From contig CAJINV010000001.1 of NCBI GenBank assembly GCA_905178155.1, forward strand, positions 11,825,832 to 11,889,831: a stretch of DNA of 64,000 nucleotides, read 5' to 3'. Origin of the DNA: Amoebophrya sp. A120 (lineage: Eukaryota; Protista; Dinoflagellata). This document shows positions 29,501-64,000 of the stretch, one piece after another (the first letter of the stretch is position 1; each line of letters begins with the position of its first letter). The notes beneath the pieces are model-generated. The model was not told the origin of the DNA. It worked only from the letters and a program-made list of their open reading frames with translations, and searched no databases. Position numbers and translations under genes: made by a program.

Positions 29501-32500
29501 ATTCGACCGGGCGCCGGCGGTGCGGGATTGCTCGTTTTACTTGACACCGCTGAAGAACTCGGCGCCGCCTTTGCCAGCACCGGGCCGCGCGACTTTTGTT
29601 CAGCACCCGGCGGCCGCTTCGGTTGCAGAGACGACTTTTCATCCTCACTCGAACTCTTTGCAACTTTCGCAGCCTCTTCTTCACTCGAGCTGGCGCCTCC
29701 ACCGATGAGAGTGACAGCGGGCGCGGAGTCATCGACCGTGACGCGCTTGCCAGGAAAAGTACTTGCTTGCTTCGACGTAATTTCCTCACTTCTTGCATCA
29801 GCATGATCCGGTGACGACGGAACAGCAGCCGCCTGGGAGTCGTGGTCGTCCTGTTGCAAACTCGGGCTGGAAACGTCTTCCGAACGCTCCGGCCGAGCCG
29901 GCGCGCCCTCGGAGTCGCCTGCTGGGCCGATATCTGCCTCGGAGTCGGTGCCCGGCACCGAACCCGCGGACAACACCGAACCCCCACCGCCGCCCGAATG
30001 GTCCTCGTCACTGTGTATGTTTTTCGTCCCTGCTTCCGAATTCGTCTGCAGGATTCTTTTGGACTCGGTCAGACTTGCCGCAAGTGGCTCCCCTTCCGGA
30101 TTCGACGGCTCTACTGATGCGGACAGCTCAAACTGCTCGTCTGTTGCCTGCAGCAGTTCCTGTCCGCGCGTGGAGATCATGTTGCCACGGGCGAGCGCCG
30201 CATTTACGTTCGTCGCTTGTTGCGATTCTGGTTCCGCTGCCTGTTGTTCCTGCTCCACCTCGCTTTCCGGCGCCGAACCCTGGAAGGAAGCATCATCTCG
30301 ATTGCCTGAAGGAAATGCTGGTGCCCCTTCGTCCGACGATCCACCCGGAGGTAAAACGTCGAGATCCTCTGCCTCCTTCGGCTGCTCCTGCTCCTGATCC
30401 GTATCAGTTACACTCATGTCATATCAAATGTAAAAATGTCTGGGCCTGGAAGAGAGCAACTTGTGATGCTGAATTTGGATTCCAAAAAAATCTGTATTAC
30501 ATGAGCAGCAAAGGGAATGGAATTTTTGCTACGCGGAGAGGGCATTTGTCATGCGGAATAGGCACCGCGAAGCCCTCAAAAAAGCTGTGATGCTAGGGCA
30601 TGCATCACAGACATCATGGCCAATGCAAAACATGCATGACAAGTCTCAGAATCTTCCAGACCCAGACATTTTTACATTTGATATGTCACTGAAGGTGTCC
30701 CGGGGATTTCTCATCGAATTCGCTGGAACGGGGGCTAAGCCGACTTTCTTCTGTTCTTTTTGTCCGACCGCGAGAGCATTGACGTTCGCTTGCGACAGTA
30801 CAGGACCGCCGTTGTCATCTTCCATTCGCATCAGCTCTGGCACCGTACCCCCGTCACTGCTCGCTGGGAAACCGCTGCTCTGTACGCTCGCCTGCAGATT
30901 GTCACCTGCCGCAGCTGCTGCTCCGCTGCTCATCGGCACGTCAACATCCTCGTGCGCTTCGTCCGTCCCAAGCTGGCCACGGTTGAATACGGGCTCGCCA
31001 ACATCTTCTTGCGCTTGCACCTCTATAGCTGCATCGTGCTCCACAATTTCGTCTGAGTCTATCTCCTCCGCCTGCTCCCCGGCCGCGGTCTGGGCGGCGT
31101 CTGGTTGCCCTTGGTCAGCGCCGGGGTCTTCGTCATACTCTTGGAATTCCCCATGTTCGTCGTAGTACCCGGCGCCGCTGCCGTCGTGATAGTTCCCATC
31201 GTCGTCGTAGAAGCCTCCGTAATGGTCATACCCCTCTGCATCGAAACCGTGCTCGTCGTACTGCCGAACGTCTGGCTCTTTCGAAGCAGCTGGTGAGGAT
31301 CCCCCGAGATGATCGTCACTTGATGCCGCAGGTAGATTCTGATCTTCCGGTGAGCTTTGACTTGTTTTTACCGCTATTTCTGGATTAACTTCACCTGGTT
31401 CAGTTGTTACATTTTCCTCTTGAACTGCTTCCAGATCCCCCGCCGTGCTTCTCCGCTTTGTCATTGCGTCCGAGAACCGCTGCCCCAGCGCCATACCAGC
31501 TTCCGCCTCGTTGTCCGAGTAGGTGTCGCCGTGAAGGAGCTCTTTTTCCTCGTATTCCGCCTGGTGGTGGTGCTCATCCCCCTCGACAACAGGATTCAGA
31601 CCCTGTTCCGGCGCGAGCAGGGGGCCGCCCTCCGGCACGATTGACCTTTTGAAGGGACTATTGCCTCCTAAAAACTTGTCCGTTTGCAGCATGTTCAGGA
31701 AGCTCGGGCGCGCGGTGCCAGTGGTTGGAGGCGGCGTGAGACGAGTCGACGTCGATGGTGCTCTAGTACTGTCCGCAGACTGCTGTTCTTTAGCCGTGCT
31801 AAGTGTCAAATCACCCTCGTGCACCTGCTGCTGTACTACTTCACCCTCCTGCGTCGGCTCGTCGTAATACATGAGCAGAACTTCCTTCGCCGCAGGGTCG
31901 ACTACATCAAGACCGTCGTTGCTATTCGCTACGAAGTCGAGAAAGGAGCCTAAGTGTTCCTTCCCTTGCAGCCACGCGTTACCGTACTGTTGGAACAGAA
32001 CTTCGGCGGTCGCCGCGTCCTGCATTTTCTGTTTGATAGGCGAGTCTCCCAGCGAAGATCTATTTTGCCCGAGTTTTCTTGTTCCAAACGACGCTTCCTT
32101 GCCGGCCCGCCTCATCGGGCTATCCTCCTCCGCCACAACGCCCGCTTCATCCAGCGCCTGATCCCAATAGTTGTTGGTTAGACTGTTTAGAAACCGCATC
32201 TCATCTCTTTGCACCAAGGGGATCTTGTCGGGAGAATCAGGCGGCATGTCGTAGAACGGCAGTTCCACGGAGACAGCGGGAGTGGTTTCTTCGGCCTTTT
32301 TTCCAACATCTTCAACCTCAGTTGTGAAAGCCTCGCTAGACAATGTGGCCGGTCCTTCCGCTGCTCCCGCTTCTATCCCCTCTGCAATGAATTCCACCTT
32401 TTTCTTTTTTGTTTCGTCTCGCTTGACGCGGTCTCCTTCCACTGGCTCCTCTTGCTGCAAAATTTCCGCAACTTTCTTGCTCTCCCGGCGCAGGTCGAAA

Positions 32501-33324
32501 TCAGAAGACGAGCTGGACGCTTCTTCCGCCTCTTTCTCGTCCTTTTCCTTCTGCACAGCTTCGACTTGCGCTGCGAAAAACTTAAGCGGGTCCCCGGAGA
32601 CCTCGATCGGAACCGCAGGGCTCTTCGCGACCACAATCGCTGCATCTGCGTACTGCCCGTCATCCTCAATACGGTCAAAATTTGCTAAATTTCCCAAACA
32701 CAGCACATGGCCGACCCCCGGAATCGCAGCGTCCTCTGCCCTTGCCACAACTGTGCCTGCTTTCCAGTCCTTGTATTGCTTCCTCCATCTGGGCACCACT
32801 ATCCGCTGCTCCACCTGCGAAAGACGCTCGATCGTGAGACTGGAGAAAATTGGTCGCGTGCGGTTGACAAAAAAGAGCTCCCCCTCAGCGATCTCAGGCG
32901 TTGACAGAAACGCCCCGAGAACGAGCCCGGTGGCCCGCGTCCACGCGGCTTCAGACCCTACTTCCTGGGACCGGATTAGATGCCCCTCCGCTTCGTACAC
33001 GAACTCCTCAATGGCCAAATCGATGAACCTCGGGATCTCCGCAAGTGCCGCGTGGTTTGCAATGTCCACACTGTCTGCAATCAAGGGTAGTTTTGCGGTG
33101 TGCACAGAAAATAGAGCACAGCAAATTTTCTTGTAGTCCTGAAACAGCGCCGGGTCGATCTGAACCTGGTCGCGAACTTTCCGGATATAGCCTCGCTCAA
33201 ACAACGCCGTCGCTTCGACGTCCTTGGAAACTACTTCGTGCGTGGTCAGAAACTTCCCATTAGCGTCAATCAAGTGCAGGTAAAGCACCAAATCCCCAAC
33301 GGGAGCAAACTCAAAGTGAATCAT
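17582..33324 (-). CDS. Giant hypothetical protein (~4,850 aa): disordered middle and a tandemly duplicated helical region
   Basis: Exons 33324-30684, 30416-26596, 26104-23681, 23525-22880, 22752-21470 and 21313-17582 join in frame through one TIR intron and four GT-AG introns. The 5' end is uncertain. Confidence 0.7.
30422..30683. mobile_element. TIR non-canonical intron, family A
   Basis: TIR TATCAAATGTAAAAATGTCTGGG[C/T]CTGGAAGA. TSD TGTCA at 30417-30421 and 30684-30688. Removal fuses the 892-aa and 1280-aa ORFs (TFSD-M-SVTD). Confidence 0.95.
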
Positions 33325-62182: not shown

Positions 62183-62586
62183 ATTACGAAGAGCTTTGCG
62201 CTGCAGAGTTCTTGTTCCCTACTGGATGCTAGTGCACCAGTTTTCGTCAGAGGCATGATGGTGTGTTCATCCGCTGGACATTTTATTTTTTGTCTGTATT
62301 TACGCGCGCCTTGATTCTTTGTTTTGTCTTGTACTGGTGGTGGGGAGGAAATGAATTCAAATAGAGATACATTACAGCAAACGAAATCGCGGGGAATTCT
62401 TTATCGTTTGGTCGTCCTGATGGATTTTTCAACAAGCTATAACTCGTCCTCTCTTTACTCATTTTTTGTTTTTGAACTTTTCACATCGGTTCTGTTTTCT
62501 GTTTTTGATGAGCGCATATGAGTATCCGCATGCTTCTGCTTTAGTCTGATAGCCCGGTAATGGTAAAGATAGCATTGCGGTGCCGG

Positions 62587-64000
62587 ATGAAACATCAAGC
62601 GTGTAGGTGGTCGGTGGTTCTTTGGAGCTGCCTGCTTTTGCGACCAGCGGCCGCGCTACCAGAGGTTGCCGTCTGTCTTCGCGGCGTCCCGGGCTCCCGT
62701 CGGGCCTTGAAGCATTGGCACAAGTATGTCTGGCCCTCTCTTGGAGGGGAAGAGAATGTGGATCTGTTTCTCGTATCGCCGATCCAGAAGCAAGTTCTGC
62801 AGCGGCACCACTGCCTGGAGTTTCCAGAAGAAAAAGCCATCGAGAAGAGGTTCTACCTGTCGCTCCACGACGGGGAAGACGAGGCGACCACAGGGGGCTT
62901 GGAGGTGAAGAAAGATGAACTTGAGTCAGATACTAGTACAAAAAAGCTAGAGCCGCACTGCGAAAACCGTGCTATCCCCGTGAAAGACGCTTTTCTGCGC
63001 AACGACGTCGATATGGAGGCGTTTCACGACGAGCACACCCCCGCCTGGCGGGCCTATGCTTTTCCGCTCATGTTCGAAGCGGATTCGAAGCTGCTCGGGG
63101 GGCTTCCCTTCCCCGACTACGACCAATTGGCGTTTCAGGAGAACTACCAGGTGCTCCGGCAACCGACCCGCTGGCGGGATTTGTCGTGGAAGCTGGAGAA
63201 GCATGAGCGCAGCCACCGAACCTACCTGCGCCGGTACATCAAGGCGGCGCCGCAATTTTTCGACCTGTGGAAGTGCGAAGAAATCATTTCCAACTCGGAA
63301 GTGTATGCGAGGAATCACAAGAAATACAGTCATGTGCTTATTACAATGAAAAATCCCCTCACCCCCGAACCTGGGCGCATTTGTATTGCAAACCTTTGCA
63401 AATGAAACATTCGCCCTCTTGCATCTATCAGCATCACAGATTTCGAGTCGTGAATCGAAAAAAATTGTATTGCGCAAGATCCCAGCAAGAGCGGCGCTTG
63501 TCATGCGAGCAATGCGATATACGCCTAGACTCTGCATCAGAAAGATTCATAGTCCTTTCATGCATGACAAAAAGTTTTCATTTGGAAACTTTGCATCACA
63601 AATTATTGCAACTTGGGGGGTGAGGGCATTTCTCATTGTAATAGTGCTAATCTCGCGGATGGACTTGTTCTTCTTCGCGCCCCACGCGAACATATCAAAT
63701 GTAAAAATGTCTGGGTCCTCTGGAAGAATGCAACTTGTGATGCTGCATTTAGATTCCAGAAAAATCTCTATTGCATGAGTACCAAAGGCAAGGCAATTTT
63801 TGCTACGCGGAGAGGGCATTTGTAATGCGGAATAGACATCAAGAAGCTCTCAAAAAATCTGTTGTGCTAGGGCATGCATCACAGACATCAGGGCTCATGC
63901 AAAACGTGCATGACAAGTGTCAGAATCTTCCAGACCCAGACACTTTTACATTTGATAGAACATCCTACCCGCGACGCGGGGCCTGACGTTCGCGAACTTG
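62587..64000 (+). CDS. Signal-peptide protein with AVCLxG...YxxVxxxRxD glycosyltransferase-like motifs, 3' truncated
   Basis: EVAVCLRG and KYSHVL|ISRMDLFFFAPHAN|ILPA, recovered after removing two TIR introns. Confidence 0.6.
63339..63643. mobile_element. TIR non-canonical intron (family F)
   Basis: TIR TATTACAATGA[A/G]AAAT[C/G]CCCTCACCCCC. TSD GTGCT at 63334-63338 and 63644-63648. Confidence 0.92.
63693..63957. mobile_element. TIR non-canonical intron, family A (close to the 30422 copy)
   Basis: Family-A TIR. TSD GAACA at 63688-63692 and 63958-63962. Removal gives PHAN-I-LPA. Confidence 0.95.

What the first reader, a model, noticed from the sequence alone, without database searches (positions are those of the whole stretch)
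30422..63957. Removal is orientation-independent: family A is split 3:3 between the two orientations relative to its host genes
Seen: using the asymmetric interior, copies 6192, 15844, 30422, 55871 and 63693 point one way on the plus strand and copy 47 is reversed. The hosts of 47, 6192, 15844 and 30422 are minus-strand; those of 55871 and 63693 are plus-strand. The near-sister copies 30422 and 63693 are therefore transcribed from opposite strands. Inference: no strand-specific branch point or pyrimidine tract can be required, so only the symmetric ends or hairpin are read. That fits either hairpin-guided RNA cut-and-ligate splicing or DNA-level precise excision analogous to TA-bounded ciliate IESs.
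Basis: partly seen in the sequence, partly recalled or inferred. Interest (0 to 1): 0.8.

Follow-up and report, generated by a model that had tools for sequence, protein, structure and literature searches.

The report
Transposon introns spliced either way round
Small hairpin-ended transposons that interrupt genes of the marine parasite Amoebophrya A120 sit facing either way about equally often, and copies of both orientations are missing to the base from spliced transcript assemblies, so the cell likely reads only their mirror-image ends and likely cuts the RNA, not the DNA, at a fixed offset; the elements are published, the machinery is still unknown.

Summary
Observation confirmed: six family-A copies (TAT…RTA ends, perfect 5-bp duplication) lie 3:3 relative to their host genes. 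They are the published non-canonical introners of Amoebophrya A120. 3:3 alone shows little (95% CI 0.12–0.88), but 98 callable copies from contigs of the same or a near-identical strain split 52:46 (p=0.61). A second family also goes both ways (7:5). Spliced contigs lack one copy of each orientation precisely.

The two ends are 89% mirror-identical over 30 nt, so end-borne signals are transcribed either way, and spliceosomal both-orientation introners are known. IES-like DNA excision is unlikely. Six diverged duplications fit one transcription-polar cut, 1 nt before and 4 nt after the element. This scan already reported that register on other pieces of this genome.

Best reading: RNA-level removal (about 0.9), likely by the U1-less spliceosome with the hairpin and ends replacing GT-AG (about 0.5). 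The rival is a Euglena-like non-spliceosomal route (0.38). I found unbiased orientation for these introners in no paper searched.

The parts
47..297 (-). Family-A introner, reversed on the plus strand, so 'sense' in the minus-strand centrin gene; 5-bp duplication at 42-46 and 298-302; inferred intron 43-298
   Evidence: EF-hand Pfam hit; laid but no RNA joint shown
6192..6443 (+). Family-A introner, 'antisense' in the minus-strand FkbM methyltransferase gene; 5-bp duplication; inferred intron 6188-6444
   Evidence: DNA contigs enter both ends; no RNA coverage of the gene
15844..16109 (+). Family-A introner, 'antisense' in the minus-strand ERGIC gene; absent from a spliced contig; inferred intron 15840-16110
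   Evidence: X5 record 13 resumes at 16110; its 164 intervening letters equal the model
30422..30683 (+). Family-A introner, 'antisense' in a long minus-strand ORF (26578-30421 plus 30689-33333) of unknown function; near-sister of 63693; inferred intron 30418-30684
55871..56132 (+). Family-A introner, 'sense' in the plus-strand pyruvate kinase gene; removed with exactly one 5-bp duplication in spliced contigs; inferred intron 55870-56136
   Evidence: joint 55865 to 56133 skips 267 in X9 and X10 (one sample); PK Pfam hits
63693..63957 (+). Family-A introner, 'sense' in a plus-strand gene of unknown function (62545 onward); inferred intron 63692-63961
   Evidence: laid, gene not covered by RNA at this site
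10363..10578 (.). TAT...ATA introner of another family, perfect 5-bp duplication, minus-strand host
15513..15791 (.). TAT...ATA introner of another family in ERGIC, perfect 5-bp duplication; absent from the spliced contig by length
63339..63643 (.). TAT...ATA introner of another family, perfect 5-bp duplication, same host as 63693
14195..14324 (.). Old, decayed TAT...ATA introner in ERGIC with a one-mismatch duplication; the mRNA keeps the transcript-5' copy at position 4
   Evidence: Ile/Leu/Val in 117 of 117 homologues, never the alternative Asn; the RNA contig alignment stops at 14189
15253..15444 (.). Old, decayed TAT...ATA introner in ERGIC with a two-mismatch duplication; the mRNA likely keeps the transcript-5' copy at position 4
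   Evidence: Leu in 118 of 118 homologues; the alternative is Pro
15244..15248 (-). Inferred 4-5-nt micro-exon between the old introner and a GT-AG intron (14375-15243); missing from the public protein model
   Evidence: 164-letter fit; P0001 is frameshifted here; P0002 and P0003 have PLEG
56213..56339 (+). Canonical GT-AG intron of pyruvate kinase, spliced in the same contig that lacks copy 55871; shows that the contig is cDNA

Best explanation
Family A is a non-autonomous cut-and-paste transposon (MITE) of Amoebophrya A120 that sits in exons facing either way with a 5-bp duplication and is likely removed from the pre-mRNA as a non-canonical intron, most likely by the cell's U1-less spliceosome reading the mirror-image ends instead of GT-AG. 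Because the ends are inverted repeats, either orientation gives the transcript nearly the same first and last 30 nt and a hairpin of about -100 kcal/mol that would bring the exons together. The cut is inferred to fall at a fixed, transcription-polar offset: intron = N.UAU...AUA.NNNN, so the mRNA takes duplication positions 1-4 from the upstream copy and position 5 from the downstream copy, which restores the original exon. Shown: anatomy, unbiased orientation, precise absence from cDNA contigs of one copy of each orientation. Inferred: RNA level (about 0.9), the 1+4 register (about 0.8), the spliceosome as catalyst (about 0.5).
For: Identity: an ERGIC exon of the window is 100% identical to a protein named Amoebophrya sp. 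A120, and the ends match the TAT-N7-AAA motif of A120 introners. Orientation: 52:46 among 98 called copies; 41:42 with one copy per locus; 15:15 in the 30422/63693 subfamily; mixed orientations in 7 of 14 loci with two or more called copies on one host strand; L061 has one copy each way inside one annotated A120 protein; the 150-nt family is 7:5. RNA: sense copy 55871 is skipped with exactly 5 extra nt in a contig that also splices a GT-AG intron; antisense copy 15844 is absent from an ERGIC contig whose 164 intervening letters equal the model. Register: position 1 from the upstream copy in L027:1798 (Gly in 82 of 82 homologues) and L061:2013 (Met); position 4 from the upstream copy in both old ERGIC elements and L027:271; position 5 from the downstream copy in L061:2013 (annotated A120 protein) and L079:1281 (a 75%-identical homologue); hosts lie on both strands. 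For the spliceosome: of six possible registers, the inferred one puts the element's UA at +2/+3, matching GUA in the canonical introns checked (8 of 8 in the window, 3 of 3 in L027). A120 has U2, U4, U5 and U6 but no detected U1, whereas a GT-AG-only relative has U1. 15% of canonical A120 introns share the repeat anatomy. Fritillaria's spliceosome removes MITE-derived non-canonical introns.
Against: No trace of selection for spliceosomal ends: at the inferred register G at +1 is 31 of 104 (background about 29%), AG at the end is 8 of 104, and all 16 dinucleotides occur. Conserved canonical introns keep GT-AG (98.6%). The element's 3' end is T-rich while canonical 3' ends here are A-rich. The UA match has a 1-in-6 chance of coincidence. 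The register rests on 6 elements: position 5 on only 2 (one is an annotation, one a distant homologue), and only 3 elements separate transcription-polar from element-polar cutting (p=1/8). A codon-model test on 37 imperfect duplications was uninformative (18 vs 19). RNA evidence covers 2 of the 6 window copies, comes from contigs whose RNA status is a guess, and each rests on one sample. No lariat or branch data were seen. Strand calls rest on a model (98.4% accurate in cross-validation); 25 of 123 copies were uncalled, and the extreme cases give 0.33-0.71.
Confidence: 0.5

Rival explanations
1. A second, non-spliceosomal RNA route: a protein endonuclease and ligase recognise the terminal hairpin and cut 1 nt 5' and 4 nt 3' of it, as proposed for Euglena's nonconventional introns.
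For: Complete indifference to the +1, -1 and -2 bases while canonical introns keep GT-AG. Every folded copy forms a strong hairpin on both strands (mean -102 vs -103 kcal/mol, n=104), and the terminal pair is formed in 80 of 104. Euglena's genetically defined code is also an inverted repeat set 3 nt and 5-6 nt inside the cuts; the authors favour distinct factors and circles are reported.
Against: No sign of tuning for an RNA helix: G.U pairs 55 against A.C 80 on the transcript strand in 87 stems, and no folding advantage for that strand (weak, because the stems are very stable anyway). The terminal TAT/ATA is unpaired in the predicted folds of both RNA-confirmed copies, and only 33 of 104 pair fully at positions 4-7. 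The register coincides with GUA. No candidate enzyme was sought or found.
Confidence: 0.38
2. DNA-level precise excision like ciliate IESs: the elements are cut from the transcribed genome.
For: TA ends and orientation independence resemble Paramecium IESs (recalled). Only one DNA run was laid, and contigs drop rare variants, so a stage-specific or minor excised form is not excluded.
Against: In DNA run X1, contigs at single-copy depth (24-27) run from the flank into an element at 7 element ends without breaking. They overlap the element by 25-36 letters, so only 1 of 7 meets the tool's 31-letter rule. No empty-site joint was among the 15 joints shown (141 were not shown), and this run may be the assembly's source. 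Here both TAs leave and a non-TA 5-bp repeat is resolved, unlike IESs (recalled). The retained copy follows transcription. No germline/soma split is known in syndinians (own knowledge; the 10 papers listed of 321 were all on ciliates).
Confidence: 0.04
3. The joined RNA arises by polymerase jumping across the hairpin between the direct repeats, either in vivo (RNA polymerase) or in vitro (reverse-transcriptase template switching).
For: A hairpin flanked by direct repeats is the classic template-switch substrate (own knowledge). All RNA evidence here is cDNA. Copy 55871 is in frame and stop-free in its host frame, so its removal is not forced by the frame.
Against: The other five copies shift the frame or carry stops in all frames, so real mRNA must lack them. 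Old elements with one or two mismatches in the 5-bp repeat are still removed. Protein conservation, independent of cDNA, picks the same copy. Element-exon junction contigs exist in the RNA runs, though DNA carry-over could explain them.
Confidence: 0.05

Closest known systems
Introner elements / non-canonical introns of Amoebophrya sp. A120 (Farhat et al. 2021, PMC7789003; Gozashti et al. 2025, PMC12130899)
   Same: Same organism; TAT-N7-AAA inverted repeats, 3-5-nt direct repeats, about 250 nt, RNA-supported removal, no splice dinucleotides. Gozashti's table lists A120 TIR families of this length (for example fam12, 252-260 bp).
   Different: In the sections and supplement legends read, orientation relative to the host gene is not analysed, and the border is called variable or unknown. 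Added here: unbiased orientation and a fixed 1+4 offset. Figs S19-S23 were not visible and may already hint at the offset. I could not match family A to a numbered family (0 motif hits in 12 of 14 supplement files).
Both-orientation introners of Polarella glacialis and Aureococcus anophagefferens (Roy et al., bioRxiv 10.1101/2020.10.14.339549; Huff 2016 not read)
   Same: TIR transposons that make introns in either orientation, with one duplication copy removed.
   Different: Those carry or recruit GT/GC/GA and AG sites, and classes 6, 8 and 10 are biased to one orientation. Family A recruits no dinucleotide and shows no detectable bias.
Nonconventional introns of Euglena (PMC12501133; PMC11282704)
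   Same: MITE-like inverted repeat set at a fixed, asymmetric distance inside the cuts; no GT-AG; coexists with canonical introns.
   Different: Offsets are 3 and 5-6 nt with a CDG/CHG motif and a purine after the 3' cut, against 1 and 4 nt with TAT/ATA here. Circles and a pairing requirement are shown in Euglena and untested here.
MITE-derived non-canonical introns of Fritillaria borealis (via PMC11282704 and bioRxiv 10.1101/2025.08.15.670264; Henriet 2019 not read)
   Same: Inverted repeats and target duplications; removed by a modified U2 spliceosome.
   Different: Fritillaria's ends are biased (AG-AC, AG-AT) and U1 is kept. Here the ends are random and U1 was not detected.
IS3EU/GingerRoot DNA transposons (PMC10045372)
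   Same: TA..TA termini and inverted repeats; the likely superfamily of the mobilising enzyme (inference).
   Different: Their duplication is usually 6 bp, here 5 bp. No transposase was found in the 50 window ORFs scanned.
TA-bounded IESs of Paramecium (recalled)
   Same: Short transposon-derived inserts with TA ends inside coding sequence, precisely absent from mRNA.
   Different: IESs are removed from somatic DNA and leave one TA. Here the DNA run carries the element, and a 5-bp non-TA duplication is resolved.

Membership tests
Amoebophrya A120 introner elements | Lies in the A120 genome | tested here: met
   exon 100% identical to a protein named Amoebophrya sp. A120; A25 75%
Amoebophrya A120 introner elements | Inverted repeat beginning TAT, 7 variable nt, then at least three A | tested here: met
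   definition
Amoebophrya A120 introner elements | 3-5-nt direct repeat at the borders | tested here: met
   6 of 6 in the window; perfect 5 bp in 120 of 138 loci copies
Amoebophrya A120 introner elements | Repeated family, absent from mRNA without GT-AG | tested here: met
   138 further copies; absent from cDNA contigs for 2 of 6 window copies; GT-AG possible at any register in only 6 of 104
Ciliate-type IES | Absent from the transcribed (somatic) DNA | tested here: inconclusive
   DNA contigs enter elements at 7 ends and no empty-site joint was among 15 of 156 shown; one run, contigs only, life stage not known
Ciliate-type IES | Excision leaves one TA; TA is the duplicated target | tested here: not met
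   both TAs leave; the duplicated target is a variable 5-mer outside them
U2-type spliceosomal intron | GT/GC 5' end and AG 3' end | tested here: not met
   GT 31, AG 8, both 3 of 104 at the inferred register, equal to background
U2-type spliceosomal intron | Excised as a lariat; dependent on U2/U6 | not testable with these tools
   no raw reads of this strain: the three 2026 runs laid gave 0 reads, 0 reads, and 78 element-end reads from another locus
Euglena-type nonconventional intron | Terminal inverted repeat at a fixed asymmetric offset from the cuts | tested here: met
   1+4 offset consistent in 6 of 6 homology-informative elements; small sample
Euglena-type nonconventional intron | N3CDG ... 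CHGN5-6|R signature | tested here: not met
   ends are N-TAT and ATA-N4
Euglena-type nonconventional intron | Released as a full-length circle; pairing required | not testable with these tools
   needs raw RNA or mutagenesis; the G.U test gave no support
IS3EU/GingerRoot transposons | TA..TA termini | tested here: met
   definition
IS3EU/GingerRoot transposons | Usually a 6-bp duplication | tested here: not met
   5 bp
IS3EU/GingerRoot transposons | Cognate IS3-like DDE transposase | not testable with these tools
   whole genome not held; no transposase domain in 50 window ORFs

The most novel reading that the evidence does not exclude
Amoebophrya A120 runs a second nuclear pre-mRNA splicing system, independent of the spliceosome. 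It measures 1 nt and 4 nt from a transposon's terminal hairpin, ignores every base at the cuts and the element's orientation, and so turns any insertion of a TAT...ATA transposon with a 5-bp duplication into a scarless intron. It would be a convergent twin of Euglena's unexplained route.
Probability: 0.38. Interest if true: 0.85.

Novelty: new variant of a known kind. Interest (0 to 1): 0.5.

Why it matters
How A120 removes more than 60% of its introns without GT-AG or U1 has been open since 2021. Unbiased orientation plus a fixed polar offset reduce the code to the symmetric 30-nt ends. That explains why these transposons could spread to tens of thousands of exonic sites: every insertion is neutralised, whichever way it faces and whatever the target. 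It also says where to look for lariats or circles. If a spliceosome does this, its +1/-1 requirements can be bypassed by structure. If not, there is a second eukaryotic pre-mRNA splicing machine and a sequence-agnostic, scarless RNA excision tool. The elements themselves are published and both-orientation introners exist elsewhere, which limits the surprise.

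Tried and rejected
No whole genome is held, and the contigs behind the loci could not be extended, so the orientation test uses 150 stretches from one capped scan and not the genome. The run search listed no RNA holder on record. The 2026 raw RNA runs X6, X7 and X8 gave no test. Laying a DNA run together with RNA swamped the joint table with repeat-derived joints. 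An ab initio finder for GT-AG introns recovered 0 of 5 known introns and was discarded. A codon-model test of which duplication copy is kept was uninformative (18 vs 19). The G.U versus A.C test and strand folding energies gave no support for RNA-helix selection. An apparent preference for TATG-type ends at the transcript's 3' side (13 vs 28, p=0.03, one of 18 positions examined) was not confirmed in other families (5 vs 8, p=0.58). A at -7 in canonical introns (9 of 11 after correcting one end by 1 nt) is not beyond their A-rich background. The SNF2 case (L012) was undecided because the alignments stopped before the site. The first hit was the unspliced ORF itself. No name was obtained for the hosts of 30422 and 63693. 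The earlier-findings search by sequence found nothing.

Full report
1. Observation. The six copies are at 47-297, 6192-6443, 15844-16109, 30422-30683, 55871-56132 and 63693-63957. Each has TAT...(A/G)TA ends and a perfect 5-bp duplication outside them. Interior-only alignments put five copies in one orientation and copy 47 in the other, in 15 of 15 pairs. After removing the element and one duplication, the hosts read as centrin, an FkbM methyltransferase, ERGIC and a long unknown ORF on the minus strand, and pyruvate kinase and an unknown gene on the plus strand. For 47, 6192, 30422 and 63693 only one of six frames is fully open; for 15844 and 55871 Pfam decides. The split is 3:3, but with n=6 the confidence interval is 0.12-0.88.

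2. What it is. An ERGIC exon is 100% identical to a protein named Amoebophrya sp. A120. Farhat et al. 2021 (PMC7789003; seen: abstract, passages, sections 10, 11, 12 and 16, supplement legends, no figures) describe 29,850 repeated non-canonical introns in A120. These have TAT-N7-AAA inverted repeats and 3-5-nt direct repeats; U1 was not detected, and the border position is described as unknown. Family A fits. Three more intact elements of other families and two decayed ones lie in the window. In the DNA run, depth over element bins is thousands of times the single-copy depth (not a copy number).

3. Larger orientation test. Two exons from it are 99% and 100% identical to A120 proteins, so it is A120 or a near-identical strain. 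I found 138 distinct family-A-like copies, 120 with a perfect 5-bp duplication. Twelve were dropped for a poor duplication or unclear orientation and 3 for short flanks, leaving 123. A strand model trained on 11 window ORFs was 98.4% right at margin 4 in cross-validation (428 of 660 simulated junctions called) and called 98 copies: 52 sense, 46 antisense (p=0.61, CI 0.43-0.63). Other margins and a locus-level call gave p=0.25-0.92, and the two calls agreed in 51 of 52 cases. One copy per locus gave 41:42; assigning all 25 uncalled copies one way gives bounds of 0.33-0.71. The 30422/63693 subfamily is 15:15, and 7 of 14 loci with two or more called copies on one host strand are mixed. An unrelated 150-nt family with unlike ends is 7:5.

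4. RNA versus DNA. In runs X9 and X10 (one sample, RNA status a guess) a contig joins 55865 to 56133, which is the sense copy plus exactly 5 nt, and also splices the GT-AG intron 56213-56339. In X5 a contig aligns at 13573-14189 and 16110-16358 with 164 letters between. That equals the ERGIC model with four elements and one GT-AG intron removed (50+4+63+47), so the antisense copy 15844 is gone too. In DNA run X1, single-copy contigs enter elements at 7 ends by 25-36 letters (only 1 meets the 31-letter rule), and no empty-site joint was among the 15 of 156 joints shown. This argues against a major excised DNA form in that sample. It does not exclude a rare or stage-specific one, and X1 may be the source of the assembly.

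5. Where the cut falls. Perfect duplications hide the register; diverged ones reveal it. In ERGIC, the upstream copy supplies position 4 in both old elements: Ile/Leu/Val in 117 of 117 homologues against Asn, and Leu in 118 of 118 against Pro. The RNA contig also stops at 14189 and does not run on through the downstream copy. In L027, position 1 (Gly in 82 of 82) and positions 2 and 4 (Lys in the annotated protein and close relatives; His absent from the top residues) come from the upstream copy. In L061 the annotated A120 protein has Met from the upstream copy (position 1) and Arg from the downstream copy (position 5). In L079 a 75%-identical homologue has the downstream residue at position 5. 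These 6 elements, picked by eye as homology-informative from 37 strand-called imperfect cases plus one ERGIC element, all fit intron = N.TAT...ATA.NNNN. Only 3 of them separate transcription-polar from element-polar cutting. I noted this register before looking up earlier notes; several earlier, unreviewed reports on other pieces of this genome give the same 1+4 rule. They are not independent proof.

6. What the orientation result does and does not imply. It excludes a signal in the interior. It does not exclude a branch point or other signal at the ends, which are 89% mirror-identical over 30 nt and 78% over 50 nt. The canonical introns checked here (8 in the window, 3 in L027) begin GTA, and the 8 measured have A-rich 3' ends with a pyrimidine fraction of 0.24-0.59, so no pyrimidine tract is used for them either. 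Polarella and Aureococcus introners make ordinary-site introns in both orientations (bioRxiv 10.1101/2020.10.14.339549, passages).

7. Mechanism. U1 is missing in A120 but present in a GT-AG-only relative (PMC12005148, passages). Fritillaria is a precedent (PMC11282704, section 6; bioRxiv 10.1101/2025.08.15.670264, passages). For a separate route: +1, -1 and -2 are random (G at +1 31 of 104, AG 8 of 104) while conserved introns keep GT-AG, and Euglena has an analogous offset hairpin code attributed to distinct factors (PMC12501133, passages and Discussion). Against strict helix reading: G.U 55 vs A.C 80, no folding advantage for the transcript strand, and unpaired terminal triplets in the folds of both RNA-confirmed copies. 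I give the spliceosome 0.5, a non-spliceosomal RNA route 0.38, polymerase jumping 0.05 and DNA excision 0.04. The mobiliser is probably IS3EU/GingerRoot-like by its TA..TA ends, though those usually make 6-bp duplications (PMC10045372, passages). Gozashti 2025 reports an integrase-like TIR family in A120 that lacks Ginger ends (PMC12130899, passages, 12 of 14 supplement files searched, 19 of 58 A120 rows read).

8. Novelty. The elements and their RNA-supported removal are published. Searches, and word searches for 'orientation' in PMC7789003 (text and supplement), PMC12130899, PMC9860276 (passages), PMC11282704 and PMC12501133, found no orientation analysis of Amoebophrya introners. Subscription papers, figures (notably Farhat Figs 3 and S19-S25) and bioRxiv supplements were not seen and could bear on this. 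Verdict: a new, well-supported property of a known intron class, with the machinery unresolved. Interest 0.5.

Noticed in passing
window 15244-15248 (minus): A 4-5-nt micro-exon between an old introner and a GT-AG intron; the public A120 ERGIC protein (P0001) misses it and is frameshifted, losing the conserved C-terminus.
   Followed up: yes
window 55871-56132: This copy is in frame and stop-free in the pyruvate kinase frame (ORF 55772-56251), so an unspliced mRNA would encode an 89-residue insertion; the cDNA contigs lack it.
   Followed up: partly
window 54857-55805: A 949-nt GT-AG intron of pyruvate kinase mostly filled by tandem arrays of 13-, 16- and 26-nt units.
   Followed up: partly
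window 14337-14394 and 15034-15091: A 58-nt, 93%-identical duplicate of an ERGIC exon piece and its acceptor lies inside the upstream 869-nt intron, a possible decoy 3' splice site.
   Followed up: no
window 42805-43959: Near the switch from minus-strand to plus-strand gene blocks: a 230-nt palindrome (42805-43034), six GC-rich 72-nt tandem units with internal palindromes (43292-43735) and a perfect 33-bp inverted repeat (43846-43959); possibly a bidirectional promoter or origin region.
   Followed up: no
family-A copies, e.g. window 6192-6443: A TGT(C/G)ATGC motif recurs 5-7 times per element in both orientations at roughly 20-40-nt spacing; likely transposase-binding subterminal repeats.
   Followed up: partly
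L001-L150 family-A ends: TATG-type ends occur more often at the transcript's 3' side (28 vs 13; 19 vs 2 in antisense copies); not confirmed in other families (8 vs 5). If real, a faint strand polarity in end recognition.
   Followed up: partly
window 267-298, run X6: A 2026 RNA run with the same species label but no match to the window's exons holds reads with a family-A end attached to a different flank, so the family is shared with another strain or species.
   Followed up: no
L066 1262-1835: Two elements separated by only 3 nt, with overlapping duplications; a natural test of the minimum exon size for this route.
   Followed up: no
window 59563-59617 and 60668-60722; 12526-12562 and 62008-62044: Two further repeat pairs (55 nt direct, 91%; 37 nt inverted, 78%) that are not TAT...ATA elements; 59900-60700 is highly covered in the RNA runs.
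   Followed up: no
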